From Naegleria gruberi (taxonomy: Eukaryota), in NCBI GenBank assembly GCA_000004985.1, contig GG739019.1: a stretch of DNA of 5,223 bases; one strand, given 5' to 3'. A program made the position numbers and the translations under genes. The stretch's first letter is position 1. Every line of letters starts with the position of its first letter. Shown here in pieces: positions 1-5,219 of the stretch. The notes beneath the pieces were generated by a model, which was not told where the DNA came from, did no database searches, and saw only the letters and a list, made by a program, of their open reading frames with translations.

Positions 1-501
1 TAAAATATCAATTGTATCTAATAAATTATCAAAATTAATATTTTTTAAAATATTATTTATATTTAATTGTTTAATATTTATAAATTCACCTTCAACTCTA
101 TTTAAAATAAATAAAATACTAAAATTATTTGAATATATTTGTAATTTACCATAAATTAAATAATCAATTATAGATTGTAATGCATCTAATTCTTCATTAT
201 TTAAATTATTTAATAAATATTCATTTTCAATTACATTTTTTAATAAATTTGGTGCCATTTTTACTATAATTGGTTTAAATACAATAATTCCATTTTTAAT
301 TTCATCCATTTCAAATTTTTTTAAAATTACTTTTTTATATTTAATTTCTTTTTTTTTAAATGATTTTTTAATTTCAATTAAATTAATTCCATTTCTATTT
401 GCTATATTTAAATCATTATTTTCTATTTTTATATCTGGATGATTTAATAATAATTTAATTATTTCTAAATTTCTTTCTTTACATGATATACGAAGTGGTG
501 A
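1..501 (-). CDS. Ankyrin-repeat protein, large 3' exon (partial, runs off the window at position 1): 4th ankyrin-like repeat, Lys-rich linker and a BTB/POZ-like region
   Basis: The acceptor is ...aaatatag| at 502-503. The ORF is open for 167 codons with no stop in the extremely AT-rich DNA. It begins SPLRISCKERNLEIIKLLLNHPDIKIENNDLNIANRNGINLIEIKK, continues through FKKKEIKYKKVILKKFEMDEIKNG, and ends IIVFKPIIVKMAPNLLKNVIENEYLLNNLNNEELDALQSIIDYLIYGKLQIYSNNFSILFILNRVEGEFINIKQLNINNILKNINFDNLLDTIDIL. This resembles the hydrophobic core of a BTB/POZ fold (f..lL.fiYtG.l.i...n...lL.aA..l.i..L). The BTB call rests on pattern recognition only. Confidence 0.55.
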
Positions 502-550
502 CTATATTTGGATATTTATTATATTTAGTAATTAACATGCTTGTACTTAC

Positions 551-553
551 ACC
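551..553 (-). other. Candidate 3-nt micro-exon 'ggt' (Gly) flanked by ttaaaatag| and |gtaagtacaa
   Basis: ag at 554-555 lies 3 nt before a GTAAGT donor at 549-550. The module lies in the middle of the 97-nt interval between the third and fourth ankyrin exons. Confidence 0.2.
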
Positions 554-598
554 CTATTTTAAAATAATTTAAATATTTTATAAAAATTAATTACATAC

Positions 599-682
599 TA
601 AATTTACATTAATATTTGAATTATTTAATAATTGTTTAACAATTAAAATATTTCCTAATTTACATGATTTACATAATGCTGT
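599..682 (-). CDS. Ankyrin-repeat protein, internal exon (one ankyrin repeat, 28 codons)
   Basis: The acceptor is ...aaatatag| at 683-684, and a GTATGTAATT donor follows 599. Translation is TALCKSCKLGNILIVKQLLNNSNINVNL. The last 20 nt of this exon plus the first 10 nt of its intron are near-identical to the exon-1/intron-1 junction. Confidence 0.55.
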
Positions 683-734
683 CTATATTTGTAATTTTAA
701 TTGTAAATCATCAACACAATGAAAATATACTTAC

Positions 735-737
735 TAA
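735..737 (-). other. Candidate 3-nt micro-exon 'tta' (Leu) flanked by tttaaatag| and |gtaagtatat
   Basis: ag at 738-739 lies 3 nt before a GTAAGT donor at 733-734. Confidence 0.2.
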
Positions 738-794
738 CTATTTAAATATTTAATTATATAAATAAATAAATAAATATTTTAAAAATGTACATAC

Positions 795-797
795 TCC
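795..797 (-). other. Candidate 3-nt micro-exon 'gga' (Gly) flanked by ttatatag| and |gtatgtacat
   Basis: ag at 798-799 lies 3 nt before a GTATGT donor at 793-794. This is a near-identical copy of the module at 1141-1160. Confidence 0.2.
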
Positions 798-854
798 CTA
801 TATAATTACAATTAATCTATTATTAATATTTAATTTAAAATAAATAATACATAC

Positions 855-857
855 AGT
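855..857 (-). other. Candidate 3-nt micro-exon 'act' (Thr) flanked by tttaaatag| and |gtatgtatta
   Basis: ag at 858-859 lies 3 nt before a GTATGT donor at 853-854. Confidence 0.2.
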
Positions 858-903
858 CTATTTAAACAATTTTACAATAAATTAAATATTAATATTTACA
901 TAC

Positions 904-993
904 ATATTCTTGATTTACATTTATAGTAGGTATATTTAATAATAATTTTACAATTTCTTCTGATCCTCTTTCACATGCAATATATAAAGGTGG
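904..993 (-). CDS. Ankyrin-repeat protein, internal exon (one ankyrin repeat, 30 codons)
   Basis: The acceptor is ...gatgtag| at 994-995, and a GTATGTAAAT donor follows 904. Translation is PPLYIACERGSEEIVKLLLNIPTINVNQEY, which matches the ankyrin consensus TPLHxAxxxGxxxxVxxLLxxxAxVNxxD. The exon is phase 0 at both ends. Confidence 0.55.
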
Positions 994-1047
994 CTACATC
1001 ATTTTTAATTATTAAATATTAATTAAATATTATTAAATATTACATAC

Positions 1048-1050
1048 TTT
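1048..1050 (-). other. Candidate 3-nt micro-exon 'aaa' (Lys) flanked by ttatttag| and |gtatgtaata
   Basis: ag at 1051-1052 lies 3 nt before a GTATGT donor at 1046-1047. A weaker seventh module tatag|cat|gtacgt lies at 1101-1107. Confidence 0.2.
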
Positions 1051-1147
1051 CTAAATAATATATTAAATAAATAAATATATTAATAATAATTAATATACGT
1101 ACATGCTATAATAGGTAATTACATTCCGATACTAATAAATTACATAC

Positions 1148-1150
1148 TCC
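1148..1150 (-). other. Candidate 3-nt micro-exon 'gga' (Gly) flanked by tatatag| and |gtatgtaatt
   Basis: A consensus 3' splice site (ag at 1151-1152) sits exactly 3 nt upstream of a consensus GTATGT donor (1146-1147). The 16-nt core acatactccctatata recurs at 791-806. Confidence 0.2.
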
Positions 1151-1203
1151 CTATATACATCATAATTACAAATTTAAAATATAAATATTAAATAATTACA
1201 TAC

Positions 1204-1392
1204 TAAATTAACATTAATATTTGGAACTGATAATAAAATCTTTATAATTTCTAAATTTGATTTTTCACAAGCAATTGCTAATAAACTTGTTTTACGATCA
1301 GTTTGTAAATCATTAATACAATCTTGTAATTGTAATGTTGATAATGTTGCAATATCATTATTAACAATTGCTTGCAGTGGTGAATTTCCCAT
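1204..1392 (-). CDS. Ankyrin-repeat protein, exon 1 (start codon 1390-1392, 63 codons)
   Basis: ATG sits in an A-rich context (ataaaaaaaATGGga), with an in-frame stop 9 codons upstream. The exon translates to MGNSPLQAIVNNDIATLSTLQLQDCINDLQTDRKTSLLAIACEKSNLEIIKILLSVPNINVNL, which contains an ankyrin-like unit (TSLLAIACEKSNLEIIKILLSVPNINVN). It ends in phase 0 immediately before a minus-strand GTATGTAATT donor (+ strand 1203 downward). Confidence 0.6.
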
Positions 1393-1557: not shown

Positions 1558-2705
1558 NNNNNNNNNNNNNNNNNNNNNNNNNNNNNNNNNNNNNNNNNNN
1601 NNNNNNNNNNNNNNNNNNNNNNNNNNNNNNNNNNNNNNNNNNNNNNNNNNNNNNNNNNNNNNNNNNNNNNNNNNNNNNNNNNNNNNNNNNNNNNNNNNNN
1701 NNNNNNNNNNNNNNNNNNNNNNNNNNNNNNNNNNNNNNNNNNNNNNNNNNNNNNNNNNNNNNNNNNNNNNNNNNNNNNNNNNNNNNNNNNNNNNNNNNNN
1801 NNNNNNNNNNNNNNNNNNNNNNNNNNNNNNNNNNNNNNNNNNNNNNNNNNNNNNNNNNNNNNNNNNNNNNNNNNNNNNNNNNNNNNNNNNNNNNNNNNNN
1901 NNNNNNNNNNNNNNNNNNNNNNNNNNNNNNNNNNNNNNNNNNNNNNNNNNNNNNNNNNNNNNNNNNNNNNNNNNNNNNNNNNNNNNNNNNNNNNNNNNNN
2001 NNNNNNNNNNNNNNNNNNNNNNNNNNNNNNNNNNNNNNNNNNNNNNNNNNNNNNNNNNNNNNNNNNNNNNNNNNNNNNNNNNNNNNNNNNNNNNNNNNNN
2101 NNNNNNNNNNNNNNNNNNNNNNNNNNNNNNNNNNNNNNNNNNNNNNNNNNNNNNNNNNNNNNNNNNNNNNNNNNNNNNNNNNNNNNNNNNNNNNNNNNNN
2201 NNNNNNNNNNNNNNNNNNNNNNNNNNNNNNNNNNNNNNNNNNNNNNNNNNNNNNNNNNNNNNNNNNNNNNNNNNNNNNNNNNNNNNNNNNNNNNNNNNNN
2301 NNNNNNNNNNNNNNNNNNNNNNNNNNNNNNNNNNNNNNNNNNNNNNNNNNNNNNNNNNNNNNNNNNNNNNNNNNNNNNNNNNNNNNNNNNNNNNNNNNNN
2401 NNNNNNNNNNNNNNNNNNNNNNNNNNNNNNNNNNNNNNNNNNNNNNNNNNNNNNNNNNNNNNNNNNNNNNNNNNNNNNNNNNNNNNNNNNNNNNNNNNNN
2501 NNNNNNNNNNNNNNNNNNNNNNNNNNNNNNNNNNNNNNNNNNNNNNNNNNNNNNNNNNNNNNNNNNNNNNNNNNNNNNNNNNNNNNNNNNNNNNNNNNNN
2601 NNNNNNNNNNNNNNNNNNNNNNNNNNNNNNNNNNNNNNNNNNNNNNNNNNNNNNNNNNNNNNNNNNNNNNNNNNNNNNNNNNNNNNNNNNNNNNNNNNNN
2701 NNNNN
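1558..2705. other. Assembly gap (1148 N)
   Basis: Uninterrupted run of n; the sequence content is unknown. Confidence 0.99.
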
Positions 2706-3428
2706 ATAACTATTAATTTCTCACAGTTTGAGCAGTAGTACTTAAATAGATTACGTATATATTACAATAGTAGGTAACGTCATTAATAAAGTTAAATGTT
2801 GTGGTATTATTATTTGATCTATCAAGAACGGTATCACATAAGTACATGTCTATTGATTGGTCTTGGAAGATCTTTCTAAATGTTGCTTTGATAATTCTAG
2901 GTTTGACAACTGCAAAACATGGAAAAGAAAGCAAATGATACGATTATTTTTAACTTCACTTTCGCGGAAAATCTTTTAGCTGTTCAGAAGTTTTTTTACG
3001 TTGACAAGTCTCCCAATGCCTAACATTTCTCAAATGGAGGTACATCTCTATTATCTGTTGAAATTTTACTTGAGATATCAAGGGAAATCATGGTGAAAAC
3101 TACAAGATTATCAATGAAGAAAAAATGGAATCGACAATCTTTCATCAGATCTCCAAAGTCTAATCTAATTCATACAGTCAAGCAACTTGGTGCCAGTTCT
3201 GTTCCTCATAATGAATCAACTCATTAAGAACTGTTAAAAAAAACCATGAAACAAACTCAAATGAAAAAAAGGATTTATTGAAATAGAATGTGCTTTTAAT
3301 ACAATTCTTTTTGTTGCTTTGTTTTCTCTTACTCCAATGAATCTTTTCAAATATAAGTTTTAAATATATAAATATATTATAAATTAAATATAAATTAAAT
3401 AAATATTTTAATATATTATTTAATTAGT
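2706..3428. other. Small contig between two gaps. 2706-3350 is a GC-elevated island (about 33-38% GC) with no intact ORF and with fragmented minus-strand ORF pieces. 3351-3428 is ordinary AT-rich spacer.
   Basis: Base counts on 60-nt lines give 32-38% GC, against 10-18% in the flanking non-coding DNA. Three minus-strand stop-free stretches of about 55-75 codons sit in three different frames (3345-3182, 3195-3028 and 2934-2713). No GTAWGT...AG structure links them convincingly. Confidence 0.5.
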
Positions 3429-3478
3429 NNNNNNNNNNNNNNNNNNNNNNNNNNNNNNNNNNNNNNNNNNNNNNNNNN
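3429..3478. other. Assembly gap (50 N), interrupting the RhoGEF coding region
   Basis: Uninterrupted run of exactly 50 n, which suggests a placeholder of unknown true size. Confidence 0.99.
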
Positions 3479-5219
3479 TTAATTTAAATAATTCATTCTT
3501 ATTATTACCTAATAAATAAGATGCAAAATTAGTATATTCTTTTGTAAATAAAATTGAATCATTAAATAAATGAATTTTAGATTCTTGATAATTTTCATTT
3601 AAATTTAATAAATTATTTAATAAATTTGTATTATTATTATTTAAATTATTATTTAATAAATTATTTGTATTATTATTTAAATCATTATAAATAAATAAAT
3701 AAATATTAAAAGAATTTAAAAAACGTCTAGTAGATATAACTAATTTATCAATATTATATCTATAAGCAATATCAATTAAATTTTTTAAATTTGCAATATC
3801 TTTCATTTTTCTATTAATTTCATGTGCTTGTTGTTGTATTTTTTGACATGTTAAATTTAACATTTCATAATCTGAATGATTTTCATTGGTTTCTTTTAAA
3901 ATAGCCTTACTTAATAAACAATATTTTACAATACGTTGACATGGCATTATTAATAAACTTGTTAAATCTAAACCATCTGTACCTTTAACATTTTTACTTG
4001 AATCTTGAATAACTTGTTTAAATTTTGGATATTCTTGATAGGCTTGTGGTAAATTTGTATGAACTGTTCTTGAATAATGTGATTGATAATCTATATATAT
4101 TTTAAAAAATGGTATATATTTATAAATTATATTTCCAATATTATATAAATATAATTCTTTTTTTATAATTTCAGATTGTTCTATTGTTAAATTTATATTA
4201 TTTAAATTATTTATATTTAAATTATTTAATATATTATTTATATATTTAATTAAATCTTTATAAAACATTTGTGAACATTTTAATATATTTTCCAAATCAG
4301 GTGGAAATATTTTTTTAACAAGTACTTGTCCATTTATATTTTTAATTTCACATTCATTAAATTTTAATTGTCCTTGTTGTTCTATATTTGTATAATTGGT
4401 TATTGGTAATACAAATTCATTAAATAATACTTCTAAATATTTCTTATATTTATATTCTGATTCTATTATTTCTAATAATGTATATATACGTTTATCTATT
4501 ATTTTAGATGAATTATCTTTTTTATTACTATTAGAAGTATTAGTAGTAGTAGATGTATTTGTAGTAGTAGATGTATTATTTGTATTATTAGTAGTAGTAG
4601 ATGTATCCTTTTTAGGTGGTGGTGATGATGTAGTATTTAATGTTGGTGGTGGTGTATTATTATTTGTATTATTATTATTTGTATTATTACTTGGTGGTGG
4701 TGCAGTAATAATTTTACTATTTTTATCATCCTTACTATTATTATCATCAATATTATTATTATTTATATTAGTATTATTATTATTATATTCATCAATTTGT
4801 AAATTTGTATTATTTTTCATTAATTCAATAATAATTTTCATTGCAGAATCAATATAATTATTTGATGAAATGTTTAATTTTTTTAAATTTTTTAAATTTG
4901 TTAAATCATCAGGTAATTTTGATAATAAATTGTGTGAAATGTCTAAAATTTTTAAATTTTGTAATTTTGCAATATCAGGTTGTAATGCAATTAAACTATT
5001 ATTATTTAAATATAATTCTTCTAAATTAATACATTGTAATATATTTTGTGGTAATATTTCTAATTTATTAAAACTTAAATCAATAATTTTTAAATTTTTT
5101 AATTTATGAAAATCATTAAATAAAGAAGTAAAATTATTTTTTTTTAAAATTAAAATTTCTAAATTAATAAAAACATTTGTAAATTCATAATGAATTGATG
5201 ATATTTTGTTATTGATAAA
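3479..5219 (-). CDS. LRR-DH-PH Rho-family guanine-nucleotide exchange factor (partial; 5' end open at the window edge, 3' end lost in the gap)
   Basis: Continuous minus-strand ORF of about 580 codons. The supplied 473-aa ORF (3420-4841) extends another 126 stop-free codons upstream (4842-5219). That upstream stretch encodes clean leucine-rich repeats. DH-domain conserved regions CR1-CR3 and the Dbl-family PH signature are present; the motif strings are given in the domain features below. Codon usage is tta/aat/aaa/caa/ggt/cca. Confidence 0.8.
3480..3599 (-). other. Probable N-terminal part of a PH domain following the DH domain (truncated by the gap)
   Basis: NENYQESKIHLFNDSILFTKEYTNFASYLLGNNKNELFKL resembles the beta3-beta4 signature (r.lFLFnD.Ll..K) of PH domains that follow DH domains. 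It is separated from the DH domain by an N-rich loop. Confidence 0.4.
3756..4505 (-). other. Dbl-homology (DH / RhoGEF) catalytic domain
   Basis: CR1 reads RIYTLLEIIESEYKYKKYLEVLFNEFVLPI. CR2 reads IFPPDLENILKCSQMFYKDL, followed by IGNIIYKYIPFFKIYIDYQSHYSRTV. CR3 reads LTSLLIMPCQRIVKYCLLSKAILKET, which matches the canonical Lxs.Ll.PvQRi.KY.LLL.elLk.T. The C-terminal helix reads AHEINRKMKDIANLKNLIDIAY. Confidence 0.8.
4512..4814 (-). repeat. Asn/Thr/Pro/Ser-rich low-complexity linker (about 100 codons) between the LRR and DH domains
   Basis: The translation is NNNNTNINNNNIDDNN...APPPSNNTNNNNTNNNTPPPTLNTTSSPPPKKDTSTTTNNTNNTSTTTNTSTTTNTSNSN. The DNA consists of (aat)n, (act/aca)n runs and three ggtggtggtg (PPP) blocks. 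Confidence 0.8.
4531..4608. repeat. Imperfect tandem minisatellite (unit of about 21-27 nt, agtagtagtagatgtatttgt, 3 copies) inside the coding linker
   Basis: Direct reading shows agtagtagtagatgtatttgt, then agtagtagatgtattatttgtattatt, then agtagtagtagatgtatcc. On the minus strand this encodes STTTNT repeats. Confidence 0.6.
4842..5219 (-). other. Leucine-rich repeat region of the RhoGEF (at least 5 LRRs), upstream of the first in-frame Met
   Basis: The minus-strand translation is FINLEILILKKNNFTSLFNDFHK / LKNLKIIDLSFNKLEILPQNILQC / INLEELYLNNNSLIALQPDIAKL / QNLKILDISHNLLSKLPDDLTNL / KNLKKLNISSNNYIDSAM. This fits LxxLxLxxNxLxxLPxxL with a 23-24 aa period. There is no Met in the region, and an in-frame tga lies at 5220-5222. 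Confidence 0.7.

What the first reader, a model, noticed from the sequence alone, without database searches (positions are those of the whole stretch)
502..1203. Six juxtaposed 3'ss-NNN-5'ss modules (tag|NNN|gtatgta) inside the ankyrin gene's introns: 3-nt micro-exons or recursive-splice relics?
The minus strand shows six modules inside the two about-210-220-nt intervals and the one 97-nt interval between the ankyrin exons. They are tatatag|gga|gtatgtaa (1141-1152), ttatttag|aaa|gtatgtaa (1041-1052), aaatag|act|gtatgtat (849-859), tatatag|gga|gtatgtac (788-799), aaatag|tta|gtaagtat (728-739) and aaatag|ggt|gtaagtac (544-555). Each puts a perfect acceptor (Y-rich + tag) exactly 3 nt upstream of a perfect dictyostelid donor (GTATGT/GTAAGT). 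A weaker seventh module is tatag|cat|gtacgt. In DNA this G-poor, GTAWGT hexamers are rare, so six copies, all phased 3 nt from an AG, cannot be chance. Including the 3-nt units never breaks the frame. Two supplied residues are Gly at exactly the canonical Gly-x-Thr-Pro-Leu position ahead of the next repeat (..NVNL-G-K-PPLYIA.. and ..NQEY-T-G-L-TALCKS..). The third Gly is offset by one (..NVNL-G-SPLRIS..). The repeat lengths go from 29/30/28 aa to 31/33/29 aa, closer to the 33-aa ankyrin period. This supports the idea that they are true consecutive 3-nt micro-exons. The sub-introns would then be only 42-57 nt, at or below the usual lower bound I know for Dictyostelium introns. The alternative is that they are zero-function relics, or recursive-splicing-like 'ratchet' sites inside ordinary 97-221-nt introns. 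Either outcome is unusual. Arrays of consecutive 3-nt exons have not, to my knowledge, been described in amoebozoa.
Basis: partly seen in the sequence, partly recalled or inferred. Interest (0 to 1): 0.8.

Follow-up and report, generated by a model that had tools for sequence, protein, structure and literature searches.

The report
Single-codon exon arrays in ankyrin gene
Three apparent introns of an ankyrin-repeat gene from a Naegleria-like amoeba are each built from two to four mini-introns of 42-57 bases, separated by 3-base spacers with full splice signals; these spacers are most likely strings of one-codon exons, an arrangement I could not find described anywhere, though no RNA data confirm it yet.

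Summary
On the minus strand, all ten GTA[A/T/C]GT hexamers of the window lie in 502-1203. Three end the conventional exons. The other seven each have an AG exactly 3 nt upstream (7 modules against 0.14 expected by chance).

This cuts the three "introns" (210, 221 and 97 nt) into 4+4+2 units of 42-57 nt. Each unit has a consensus donor and a TAG acceptor and is almost free of internal AG. The units are not recent tandem copies, and the ~300-nt block of exon plus four-part intron was duplicated as a whole.

The best reading (about 0.6) is that these are genuine short introns separated by seven single-codon exons (G,H,K / T,G,L / G), which add residues just before the "TPL" start of ankyrin repeats.

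The organism is a heterolobosean: the neighbouring gene is 60% identical in protein to Naegleria fowleri. The "Gly fits the ankyrin consensus" argument does not beat random-residue controls.

A pattern scan of metagenomes found many analogous arrays of up to 27 or more one-codon spacers, depleted in stop codons. One lies at the same position of an ankyrin repeat in a fungal-type NACHT-ankyrin gene.

No transcript evidence exists, so a single long intron with unused internal sites remains possible.

The parts
1204..1392 (-). Exon 1 of the ankyrin-BTB-like gene (ATG at 1390-1392), ending ...NINVNL
   Evidence: translation; Pfam Ank_2/Ank.
1151..1203 (-). Sub-intron 1a, 53 nt, GTATGTAA...TATATAG
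   Evidence: no internal AG.
1148..1150 (-). Triplet GGA (Gly), putative single-codon exon
1106..1147 (-). Sub-intron 1b, 42 nt, GTATGTAA...TATTATAG, with TGTAATTA 13 nt before the AG
1103..1105 (-). Triplet CAT (His), putative single-codon exon; the weakest module, because its donor is GTACGT
1051..1102 (-). Sub-intron 1c, 52 nt, GTACGTAT...TTATTTAG
   Evidence: its 3' part is 78% identical to the corresponding part of 2c (D2).
1048..1050 (-). Triplet AAA (Lys), putative single-codon exon
994..1047 (-). Sub-intron 1d, 54 nt, GTATGTAA...GATGTAG
904..993 (-). Exon 2, PPLYIACERGSEEIVKLLLNIPTINVNQEY (ankyrin repeat starting at Ank profile position 5)
858..903 (-). Sub-intron 2a, 46 nt
855..857 (-). 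Triplet ACT (Thr), putative single-codon exon
798..854 (-). Sub-intron 2b, 57 nt, with TGTAATTA 8 nt before the AG; one free AG (818) lies upstream of that motif
795..797 (-). Triplet GGA (Gly), putative single-codon exon
738..794 (-). Sub-intron 2c, 57 nt
   Evidence: D2.
735..737 (-). Triplet TTA (Leu), putative single-codon exon
683..734 (-). Sub-intron 2d, 52 nt, GTAAGTAT...AATATAG
599..682 (-). Exon 3, TALCKSCKLGNILIVKQLLNNSNINVNL
554..598 (-). Sub-intron 3a, 45 nt
551..553 (-). Triplet GGT (Gly), putative single-codon exon
502..550 (-). Sub-intron 3b, 49 nt, GTAAGTAC...AATATAG
1..501 (-). Exon 4 (SPLRISCKERNLEII... then a BTB-like tail), open to the edge of the window

Best explanation
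The three intervals between the ankyrin exons are not three ordinary introns. They are three clusters of very short spliceosomal introns (4, 4 and 2 units of 42-57 nt) separated by seven exons of exactly one codon.

Inferred mechanism: each unit is recognised across the intron (donor GTATGTA/GTAAGTA, a branch region, then the first downstream AG) and removed on its own. The two introns flanking a triplet are probably removed one after the other, because a 3-nt exon is too small to hold both sets of factors at once.

The mRNA would then carry G-H-K, T-G-L and G inserted just before the 'TPL-like' start of ankyrin repeats 2, 3 and 4, that is, in the hairpin loops between repeats. Because every spacer is 3 nt, any skipping of internal sites still gives an in-frame product.

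Inferred origin: tandem amplification of a unit made of one short phase-0 intron plus 3 nt, followed by divergence. The array already existed when the ~300-nt block of exon plus intron cluster was duplicated to make new ankyrin repeats.

Shown: the anatomy, its non-random nature, the block duplication and the existence of analogous arrays elsewhere. Inferred: splicing at the internal sites, its order, and the origin.
For: 1. Seven complete AG-NNN-GTAHGT modules against 0.14 expected. Every strong donor hexamer in the window is either an exon end or part of a module.

2. Internal sites are as good as the outer ones. Internal donor 1b shares the extended context A|GTATGTAATTnATT with the donors of exons 1 and 3 (D4). 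All ten acceptors are TAG.

3. Each unit looks like a self-contained intron.
- Of the 19 AG dinucleotides in the 528 nt, 16 are acceptors or lie inside donors or at triplet/donor joins.
- The 3 free AGs (1133, 818, 541) all lie in the 5' part of a unit, upstream of the putative branch region.
- Interior G is preceded by A in only 3 of 19 cases.
- TGTAATTA lies 8-16 nt upstream of three internal acceptors (5 copies in the window against 1.5 expected).

4. The unit interiors are not similar to each other (mean z 0.45, maximum 2.6), and TRF finds no ~50-nt period. The perfect signals are therefore not leftovers of a recent duplication; something maintains them.

5. Exon ends plus donors repeat at spacings of 311 and 294 nt. 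The third module of intron 2 (731-776) matches the third module of intron 1 (1040-1085) at 78% over 46 nt, offset by about 309 nt in register, close to the exon repeat spacing. Both long intervals have four units and three triplets. The array therefore predates the repeat duplication and survived exon divergence.

6. Three of the 7 triplets are GGN in DNA with 10% G (P about 4e-5 or 5e-4). This is not explained by splice-site context, because the conventional exons start CCA/ACA/TCA and end TTA/TAT/TTA.

7. Analogues exist.
- A scan for three consecutive modules found arrays in more than 50 metagenome contigs, with up to 27-34 one-codon spacers.
- Stop codons among the spacers number 9 of 624 against 38.5 expected (P = 6e-9). 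Counting each triplet once per array gives 7 of 345 against 22.4 (P = 1e-4).
- In L160, a NACHT-ankyrin ORF ends ...QVNFWFKP|GTAAGT. It is followed by nine one-codon spacers and then an exon starting TPLMMAVNRNNEAAVRLLLKSGA at Ank profile position 4. This is the same place in the repeat as in the window.
Against: - There is no transcript, EST or proteomic evidence for this gene or organism.
- No orthologue of the ankyrin gene was found, so conservation of the triplets cannot be tested.
- The residues encoded by the triplets fit the ankyrin profile no better than random residues.
- Seven triplets without a stop codon is uninformative (about 0.46 by chance).
- The typical intron length of the source organism is unknown, and the window holds no other intron.
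- The CAT module has a weaker donor (GTACGT).
- Removing each whole interval as one intron of 97-221 nt also gives an in-frame ankyrin protein.
- The metagenome analogues have highly similar units, unlike the diverged units here. They were found with a pattern that fixed the spacer at 3 nt, and they too lack RNA evidence.
Confidence: 0.6

Rival explanations
1. These are ordinary single introns of 210, 221 and 97 nt, removed in one step from the outermost donor to the outermost acceptor. On this view the internal AG-NNN-GT modules are unused remnants of old tandem duplications of the intron ends, or tolerated decoys, and the mRNA lacks the triplets.
For: The four-exon product is in frame and is recognised as ankyrin repeats (Ank_2 66.5 bits). 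The triplet residues are not better than random for the ankyrin profile. No RNA evidence exists for inclusion. Introns of 100-330 nt are annotated in N. fowleri genes next to the orthologous RhoGEF gene (these are predictions of uncertain quality).
Against: Unused sites should decay. Here 7 of 7 donors and 7 of 7 acceptors are intact with exact 3-nt spacing, while the interiors share no detectable similarity. Strong internal donors and acceptors would compete with the outer sites, and any partial use would leave stop-rich intron sequence in the mRNA (read-through translation). AG depletion extends through every unit, not only through the last 30-40 nt of each interval. In the analogous arrays elsewhere the spacers avoid stop codons.
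Confidence: 0.22
2. The micro-exons are facultative. The internal sites are used only some of the time, so the gene gives a family of in-frame isoforms that differ by 0-3 residues in each inter-repeat loop (up to 128 combinations). This could be splicing noise made harmless by the 3-nt rule, or a means of varying the ankyrin binding surface.
For: All seven spacers are exactly 3 nt, so every donor-acceptor pairing is in frame; purely constitutive exons would not need that. The CAT module has a weaker donor. Known 3-nt micro-exons such as that of cytohesin-1 are alternative (PMC6314551, found).
Against: There are no data on isoforms. The 3-nt rule is equally explained by an origin through duplication of intron plus one codon.
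Confidence: 0.15
3. The modules arose by chance or from low-complexity AT-rich sequence, or the units are insertions of a mobile introner element.
For: The region is 86% A+T with short-period repeats.
Against: None of 200 shuffles reaches 7 modules. In 596 Gb of prokaryotic genomes, the three-module pattern hit almost only tandem repeats with identical spacers. The units share no similarity, and the triplets on either side of a unit differ, so there is no target-site duplication.
Confidence: 0.03

Closest known systems
Isolated 3-nt micro-exons (cytohesin-1 GAG exon, MAP4K5 three-base exon, RPS24 3-nt exon; 1-15-nt micro-exons of plants and Drosophila)
   Same: A 3-nt exon flanked by a full acceptor and a full donor adds one in-frame residue. 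In cytohesin-1 that residue is also a Gly (PMC6314551, PMC8632122, PMC12207440, PMC8831610, PMC8042270; found).
   Different: Those are single exons between long introns, usually alternative, and their recognition involves special enhancers. Here up to three one-codon exons follow one another, separated by introns of only 42-57 nt, three clusters in one gene.
Recursive splicing at ratchet points (Drosophila Ubx and other long introns; vertebrate RS-exons) - from my own knowledge
   Same: A 3' splice site is juxtaposed with a 5' splice site inside what looks like one intron, and removal is stepwise.
   Different: Ratchet points have AG|GT with a zero-length exon, so nothing is left in the mRNA, and they serve introns of many kilobases. 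Here 3 nt separate the sites, so the triplet must stay, and the whole interval is only 97-221 nt.
Micro-exon genes (MEGs) of Schistosoma - from my own knowledge
   Same: Runs of consecutive, symmetric micro-exons (multiples of 3) allow in-frame skipping.
   Different: MEG exons are 6-36 nt, lie in secreted-protein genes with normal-sized introns, and occur in animals.
Intron gain by tandem genomic duplication across an AGGT, and introner / introner-like elements - from my own knowledge
   Same: Both are mechanisms that multiply introns locally or genome-wide. Duplication of 'intron plus 3 nt' is the simplest origin for these arrays, and the metagenome analogues do contain near-identical units.
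   Different: The classical duplication model creates one new intron without changing the protein. Introners are dispersed, similar to each other and often have target-site duplications. The window's units are dissimilar and have no such duplications.
Arrays of intron-like units with one-codon spacers in metagenome contigs
   Same: The architecture is the same: YAG-NNN-GTRNGT every 50-65 nt. In L160 the position is also the same, just before the TPL of an ankyrin repeat.
   Different: These contigs look fungal (CTAAC-like branch sites, 30-55% GC). Units are often 70-97% identical, and arrays are much longer, up to 27-34 spacers.

Membership tests
Spliceosomal micro-exon | Flanked by a consensus 3' splice site upstream and a consensus 5' splice site downstream | tested here: met
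   Seven of 7 triplets have TAG directly upstream. Downstream, 6 have GTATGT or GTAAGT and 1 has GTACGT.
Spliceosomal micro-exon | Present in the mature mRNA | not testable with these tools
   No transcript data are available, and the source genome was not found in any collection searched.
Spliceosomal micro-exon | Keeps the reading frame and encodes sensible residues | tested here: inconclusive
   The frame is kept and there are no stop codons, and GGN is in excess. However, the residues are no better than random in ankyrin profiles.
Spliceosomal micro-exon | Conserved in orthologues | not testable with these tools
   No orthologue of the ankyrin gene was found.
Recursive splice site (ratchet point) | The AG is immediately followed by the GT (zero-length exon), so that a 5' splice site is regenerated at the junction | tested here: not met
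   All seven have exactly 3 nt between AG and GT, and no AG|GTAHGT occurs in the region.
Recursive splice site (ratchet point) | Lies in a very long intron | tested here: not met
   The intervals are 97-221 nt.
Introner / introner-like element | Copies similar to each other | tested here: not met
   Interior similarity between units has a mean z of 0.45 and a maximum of 2.6. Only one weak 27-nt match between 2a and 2b was found (D6).
Introner / introner-like element | Target-site duplication or terminal repeats | tested here: not met
   The triplets on either side of each unit differ.
Minisatellite inside an intron | Head-to-tail copies of one unit detectable as a tandem repeat | tested here: not met
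   TRF finds only periods of 4-17 nt and none of 45-60 nt.
Ankyrin-repeat protein gene | Significant match to ankyrin repeat profiles | tested here: met
   Ank_2 66.5-75.2 bits and Ank 59-62 bits, above the cut-offs of 27.3 and 21.1.
   The best named relative of the neighbouring RhoGEF gene is Naegleria fowleri XP_044558667 (60% protein identity; 76% DNA identity over 394 nt).

The most novel reading that the evidence does not exclude
Tandem amplification of 'one short intron plus one codon' may be a general, undescribed way in which eukaryotic genes grow loops one residue at a time. It would produce arrays of single-codon exons that are really spliced. Such arrays occur in distant lineages (a Naegleria-like amoeba and fungal-type NACHT-ankyrin genes). 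At least in ankyrin proteins they sit at the inter-repeat hairpin that forms part of the binding surface. Because any skipping stays in frame, they could act as a splicing-based generator of loop-length and sequence diversity in recognition proteins.
Probability: 0.3. Interest if true: 0.9.

Novelty: new variant of a known kind. Interest (0 to 1): 0.7.

Why it matters
If the triplets are spliced in, this gene holds the densest known packing of splice sites: ten introns in 528 nt of intervening sequence, with exons at the lower limit for coding exons. That would show that a spliceosome working by intron definition can process strings of one-codon exons. Gene finders and RNA-seq aligners would systematically miss these exons, as is already documented for isolated micro-exons in plants (PMC8831610). 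The arrays also suggest a concrete route for intron gain and for insertion of single residues into protein loops, namely duplication of an intron plus 3 nt. The many stop-free arrays in environmental contigs indicate that the phenomenon may be widespread and overlooked. If instead the internal sites are silent, the locus still raises a question: how are seven perfect decoy site pairs ignored and yet maintained?

Tried and rejected
1. Finding the source or an orthologue. All of the following failed: an exact look-up of the exon-1 ORF; protein searches with the full ankyrin protein, its C-terminal part and the RhoGEF domain through the word index; and tblastn on the two orthologous RhoGEF loci. 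The word-indexed search even missed the 60%-identical N. fowleri RhoGEF protein, which full HMMER then found, so its negatives are weak.

2. Ankyrin-profile test of the triplet residues, with a local HMM and with Pfam plus random controls. There was no discrimination, so I dropped the 'Gly fits the consensus' argument.

3. AlphaFold comparison of the products with and without triplets.

4. Tandem-repeat or introner origin of the window's units. TRF, pairwise z-scores and a check for target-site duplications were all negative.

5. Viral and prokaryotic collections. Only simple tandem repeats or arrays with identical spacers were found.

6. N. fowleri intron models near the RhoGEF orthologue as a guide to intron size and signals. 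The annotation looks ab initio and was not usable.

7. Rfam and tRNA scans of the window found nothing relevant.

8. Spacer lengths other than 3 nt in the fetched metagenome loci. This is uninformative, because the loci were selected for 3-nt spacers.

9. Literature. Nine searches found no paper on runs of consecutive 3-nt exons, and no data on Naegleria intron sizes. The N. gruberi genome paper is not held.
Full report
**What is in the window**

The window is extremely AT-rich (18% G+C outside two runs of N) and carries two genes on the minus strand.
- From 5223 to about 3480 runs an open frame with leucine-rich repeats and a RhoGEF (DH) domain (Pfam RhoGEF 90 bits, LRR_8 58 bits).
- From 1392 down to position 1 lies the gene of the finding. 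It starts at an ATG at 1392 and has four conventional exons: 1392-1204, 993-904, 682-599 and 501-1.
- The exons encode ankyrin repeats followed by a tail that looks BTB-like to the eye but has no significant Pfam match.

**Check of the observation**

- All ten GTA[A/T/C]GT hexamers of the window lie on the minus strand between 545 and 1203.
- Three are the donors that follow exons 1, 2 and 3. Each of the other seven has AG at positions -5/-4, which gives TAG|NNN|GTAHGT.
- AGNNNGTAHGT occurs 7 times against 0.14 +/- 0.36 in dinucleotide-preserving shuffles, and none of 200 shuffles reaches 7.
- The triplets are GGA, CAT, AAA (interval 1), ACT, GGA, TTA (interval 2) and GGT (interval 3).
- They cut the 210-, 221- and 97-nt intervals into units of 53/42/52/54, 46/57/57/52 and 45/49 nt.
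- As an outside control, a pattern demanding three consecutive modules was run over 596 Gb of prokaryotic genomes and over IMG/VR. It returned almost only tandem repeats or arrays with identical spacers. Non-repetitive DNA does not produce this arrangement by accident.

**Which organism**

This is not supported.
- The word-indexed protein search found nothing for the RhoGEF domain.
- A full HMMER search found two orthologues at 60-62% identity. One is Naegleria fowleri XP_044558667 / KAF0973954.
- Its locus (L167, GC 35.5%, flanked by CCT, TRAP-gamma and PCIF1-WW genes) aligns with the window at 76% DNA identity over 394 nt.
- The window therefore comes from a heterolobosean amoeba related to Naegleria, with a much more AT-rich genome than N. 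fowleri. The species is unknown; Willaertia is only a guess.
- Arguments from Dictyostelium intron sizes do not apply. I could not establish the usual intron size of the source organism.
- No orthologue of the ankyrin gene was found. Because the indexed search missed a 60% orthologue of the neighbouring gene, that negative is weak.

**Anatomy of the units**

Each of the ten units has the features of a free-standing short intron.
- Donors: the donors are GTATGTA or GTAAGTA, with one GTACGTA. Internal donor 1b shares the extended context A|GTATGTAATTnATT with the donors of exons 1 and 3 (family D4).
- Acceptors: all ten acceptors are TAG.
- AG dinucleotides: there are 19 in the 528 nt. Ten are acceptors, four arise from a triplet ending in A next to the GT, two lie inside GTAAGT, and only three are free (1133, 818, 541). 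All three lie in the 5' part of a unit. Interior G is preceded by A in 3 of 19 cases, although A makes up 43% of the interior.
- Possible branch motif: TGTAATTA lies 8-16 nt upstream of three internal acceptors (1a, 1b, 2b). There are 5 copies in the window against 1.5 expected, and the other two copies belong to donors. This may be a branch site, but in such AT-rich DNA that is a soft argument.

**Are the units recent copies?**

No.
- Unit interiors show no similarity beyond shuffled controls (mean z 0.45, maximum 2.6).
- TRF finds no period near 50 nt.
- What repeats is the larger block. Exon ends plus donors recur at spacings of 311 and 294 nt.
- The third module of interval 2 (731-776) matches the third module of interval 1 (1040-1085) at 78% over 46 nt, with the two copies about 309 nt apart in register (families D1 and D2).
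- Both long intervals have four units and three triplets.
- The block of exon plus four-part intron was therefore duplicated as a whole when the ankyrin repeats multiplied. All signals have stayed intact while the exons diverged to roughly one-third protein identity (my estimate by eye from the two exon sequences, not computed).
- Unused sites would be expected to decay, so this is the main argument that they are used.

**Do the triplets look coding?**

The evidence is mixed.
- Three of the seven are GGN, which is unlikely from intron composition (P about 4e-5) or from the protein's Gly frequency (P about 5e-4). Splice context does not explain it, because the conventional exons begin CCA/ACA/TCA and end TTA/TAT/TTA.
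  - Local profile built from 322 repeat segments of 56 homologues: none 117.4 bits, all seven 117.1, random residues 117.2 +/- 1.5.
  - Pfam Ank_2: none 66.5, six real 75.2, seven real 73.3, and nine random six-residue controls 66.3-80.7 with a mean of 72.3.
- Adding any residues helps a little, because the repeats are short (28-30 residues per exon against 33). The real residues are not special.
- Seven triplets without a stop codon is also uninformative.

**Why recursive splicing is excluded**

With 3 nt between the AG and the GT, splicing to an internal acceptor joins the upstream exon to the triplet, and the next donor lies after the triplet. The triplet therefore stays in the mRNA. The module cannot act as a zero-length ratchet point. 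The only alternatives are that all, or some, internal sites are used (triplets included) or that none is used.

**Analogous arrays elsewhere**

The same three-module pattern was scanned over the metagenome collection.
- Many hits are plain repeats. More than 50 contigs of 29-55% GC, however, carry arrays of 50-65-nt units, each with GTAAGT, a CTAAC/CTGAC-like motif and YAG, separated by 3-nt spacers that differ from unit to unit. Arrays reach 27-34 spacers.
- Stop codons are strongly under-represented among the spacers.
  - All spacers: 9 of 624 against 38.5 expected from position-specific base composition (P = 6e-9).
  - Each triplet counted once per array: 7 of 345 against 22.4 (P = 1e-4).
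  - TAT occurs 17 times against TAA once, and TGG 9 times against TGA never.
- This is what translated codons would look like.
- The most telling case is L160.
  - A 1091-residue open frame with a NACHT-type NTPase (NPHP3_N, 132 bits) and ankyrin repeats (Ank_2, 275 bits) ends ...QVNFWFKP|GTAAGT.
  - It is followed by nine one-codon spacers: agg gcc tgg gag gag tgg cgg aag tgt.
  - The next exon begins TPLMMAVNRNNEAAVRLLLKSGA and matches the Ank profile from position 4.
  - The array thus sits just before the TPL of an ankyrin repeat, exactly as in the window, where the exons after the arrays begin PPLY, TALC and SPLR.
  - In L160 five units are nearly identical and the others have diverged. 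This suggests continuing tandem duplication of 'intron plus codon' followed by divergence. The window's arrays would represent the fully diverged state.
- Caveats: the scan fixed the spacer at 3 nt, the arrays are partly repetitive so the triplets are not fully independent, some arrays contain stops, and none has RNA support.

**Conclusion**

- The most likely reading (about 0.6) is that 502-1203 holds ten genuine mini-introns and seven single-codon exons. Most probably these arose by amplification of a short phase-0 intron together with 3 nt, in a loop that tolerates insertions.
- A single long intron with silent internal sites (about 0.2) and facultative use of the sites (about 0.15) remain open.
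- Chance or a transposon origin is practically excluded.
- Single 3-nt micro-exons are known (cytohesin-1, MAP4K5, RPS24, plants, Drosophila). Nine full-text searches found no description of runs of consecutive one-codon exons.
- I therefore rate this a new variant of a known kind, interesting but unproven. A search of RNA-seq reads for the predicted junction strings would settle it.

Noticed in passing
Metagenome loci L047-L166, e.g. L121 (minus strand, positions 3316-4888 of the reversed locus), L098, L136, L077, L137, L158, L106, L105 4429-6116: More than 50 environmental contigs carry long tandem arrays (up to 27-34 units) of 50-65-nt intron-like units (GTAAGT, a CTAAC-like motif, YAG). 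The units are 70-97% identical to each other but are separated by variable 3-nt spacers, which are strongly depleted in stop codons (9 of 624 against 38.5 expected). This looks like 'one codon per exon' coding strings; I found no description of it in the literature library.
   Followed up: partly
L160 7999-12000: A fungal-type NACHT (NPHP3_N) plus ankyrin gene has an array of nine one-codon spacers. The array lies between the end of one ankyrin repeat (...QVNFWFKP) and an exon that starts at TPL of the next repeat. This is the same repeat position as in the window.
   Followed up: yes
L071 (+, about 60-130), L073 (-), L097 (-) and L121 (-), upstream of their arrays: Four contigs share a conserved leader in front of their arrays: an upstream motif TATCGTTATCTC (seen in three of them; L121 differs there) and a short first exon encoding M(S/V)QETWED(S/N)LF(K/Q), followed by GTAAGT or GTAGG. 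L097 has in-frame stops and may be a dead copy. This suggests a gene family whose body consists of single-codon exons.
   Followed up: partly
L122 1228-3830: An array of at least 11 one-codon spacers starts about 100 nt after a NACHT-domain open frame. A read-through stop lies before the array, so the array could be a coding extension or lie in the 3' region; this is unresolved.
   Followed up: partly
window 1558-2704 and 3428-3477: Two runs of N (about 1147 and 50 nt) are masked sequence. The second hides the end of the RhoGEF gene.
   Followed up: no
window 2705-3427: An island of 27-35% GC without any open frame lies between the two N runs, in a window that is otherwise 10-25% GC. It has no Rfam family above threshold (only a chance-level SNORD73 match at 3084-3153, 24 bits against a cut-off of 42), no tRNA, and no similarity to the N. 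fowleri or metagenome orthologous loci.
   Followed up: partly
window 4119-4250 against L167 12418-12582: N. fowleri is annotated with a 166-nt intron in the RhoGEF orthologue (GTACAA...ACAG, weak signals). At the matching place the window has an in-frame Asn/Ile-rich low-complexity insert. Either the N. fowleri model splices out a coding insert, or the region is variable.
   Followed up: no
Tool behaviour: The word-indexed protein search returned nothing for the RhoGEF domain, although a 60%-identical N. fowleri protein is in the collection. Low-complexity AT-rich proteins seem to defeat the index, so the negative results for the ankyrin gene are weak.
   Followed up: yes
Genome loci L010, L014, L016, L017, L019, L021, L023, L040, L041, L044 (Nostocales): The three-module pattern also hits a repeated element in many Nostoc, Anabaena and Calothrix genomes. 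Its copies contain ATAG-GGA-GTATGT about 70 nt apart, with variable sequence between them. It is probably a known cyanobacterial repeat or a CRISPR-like array.
   Followed up: no
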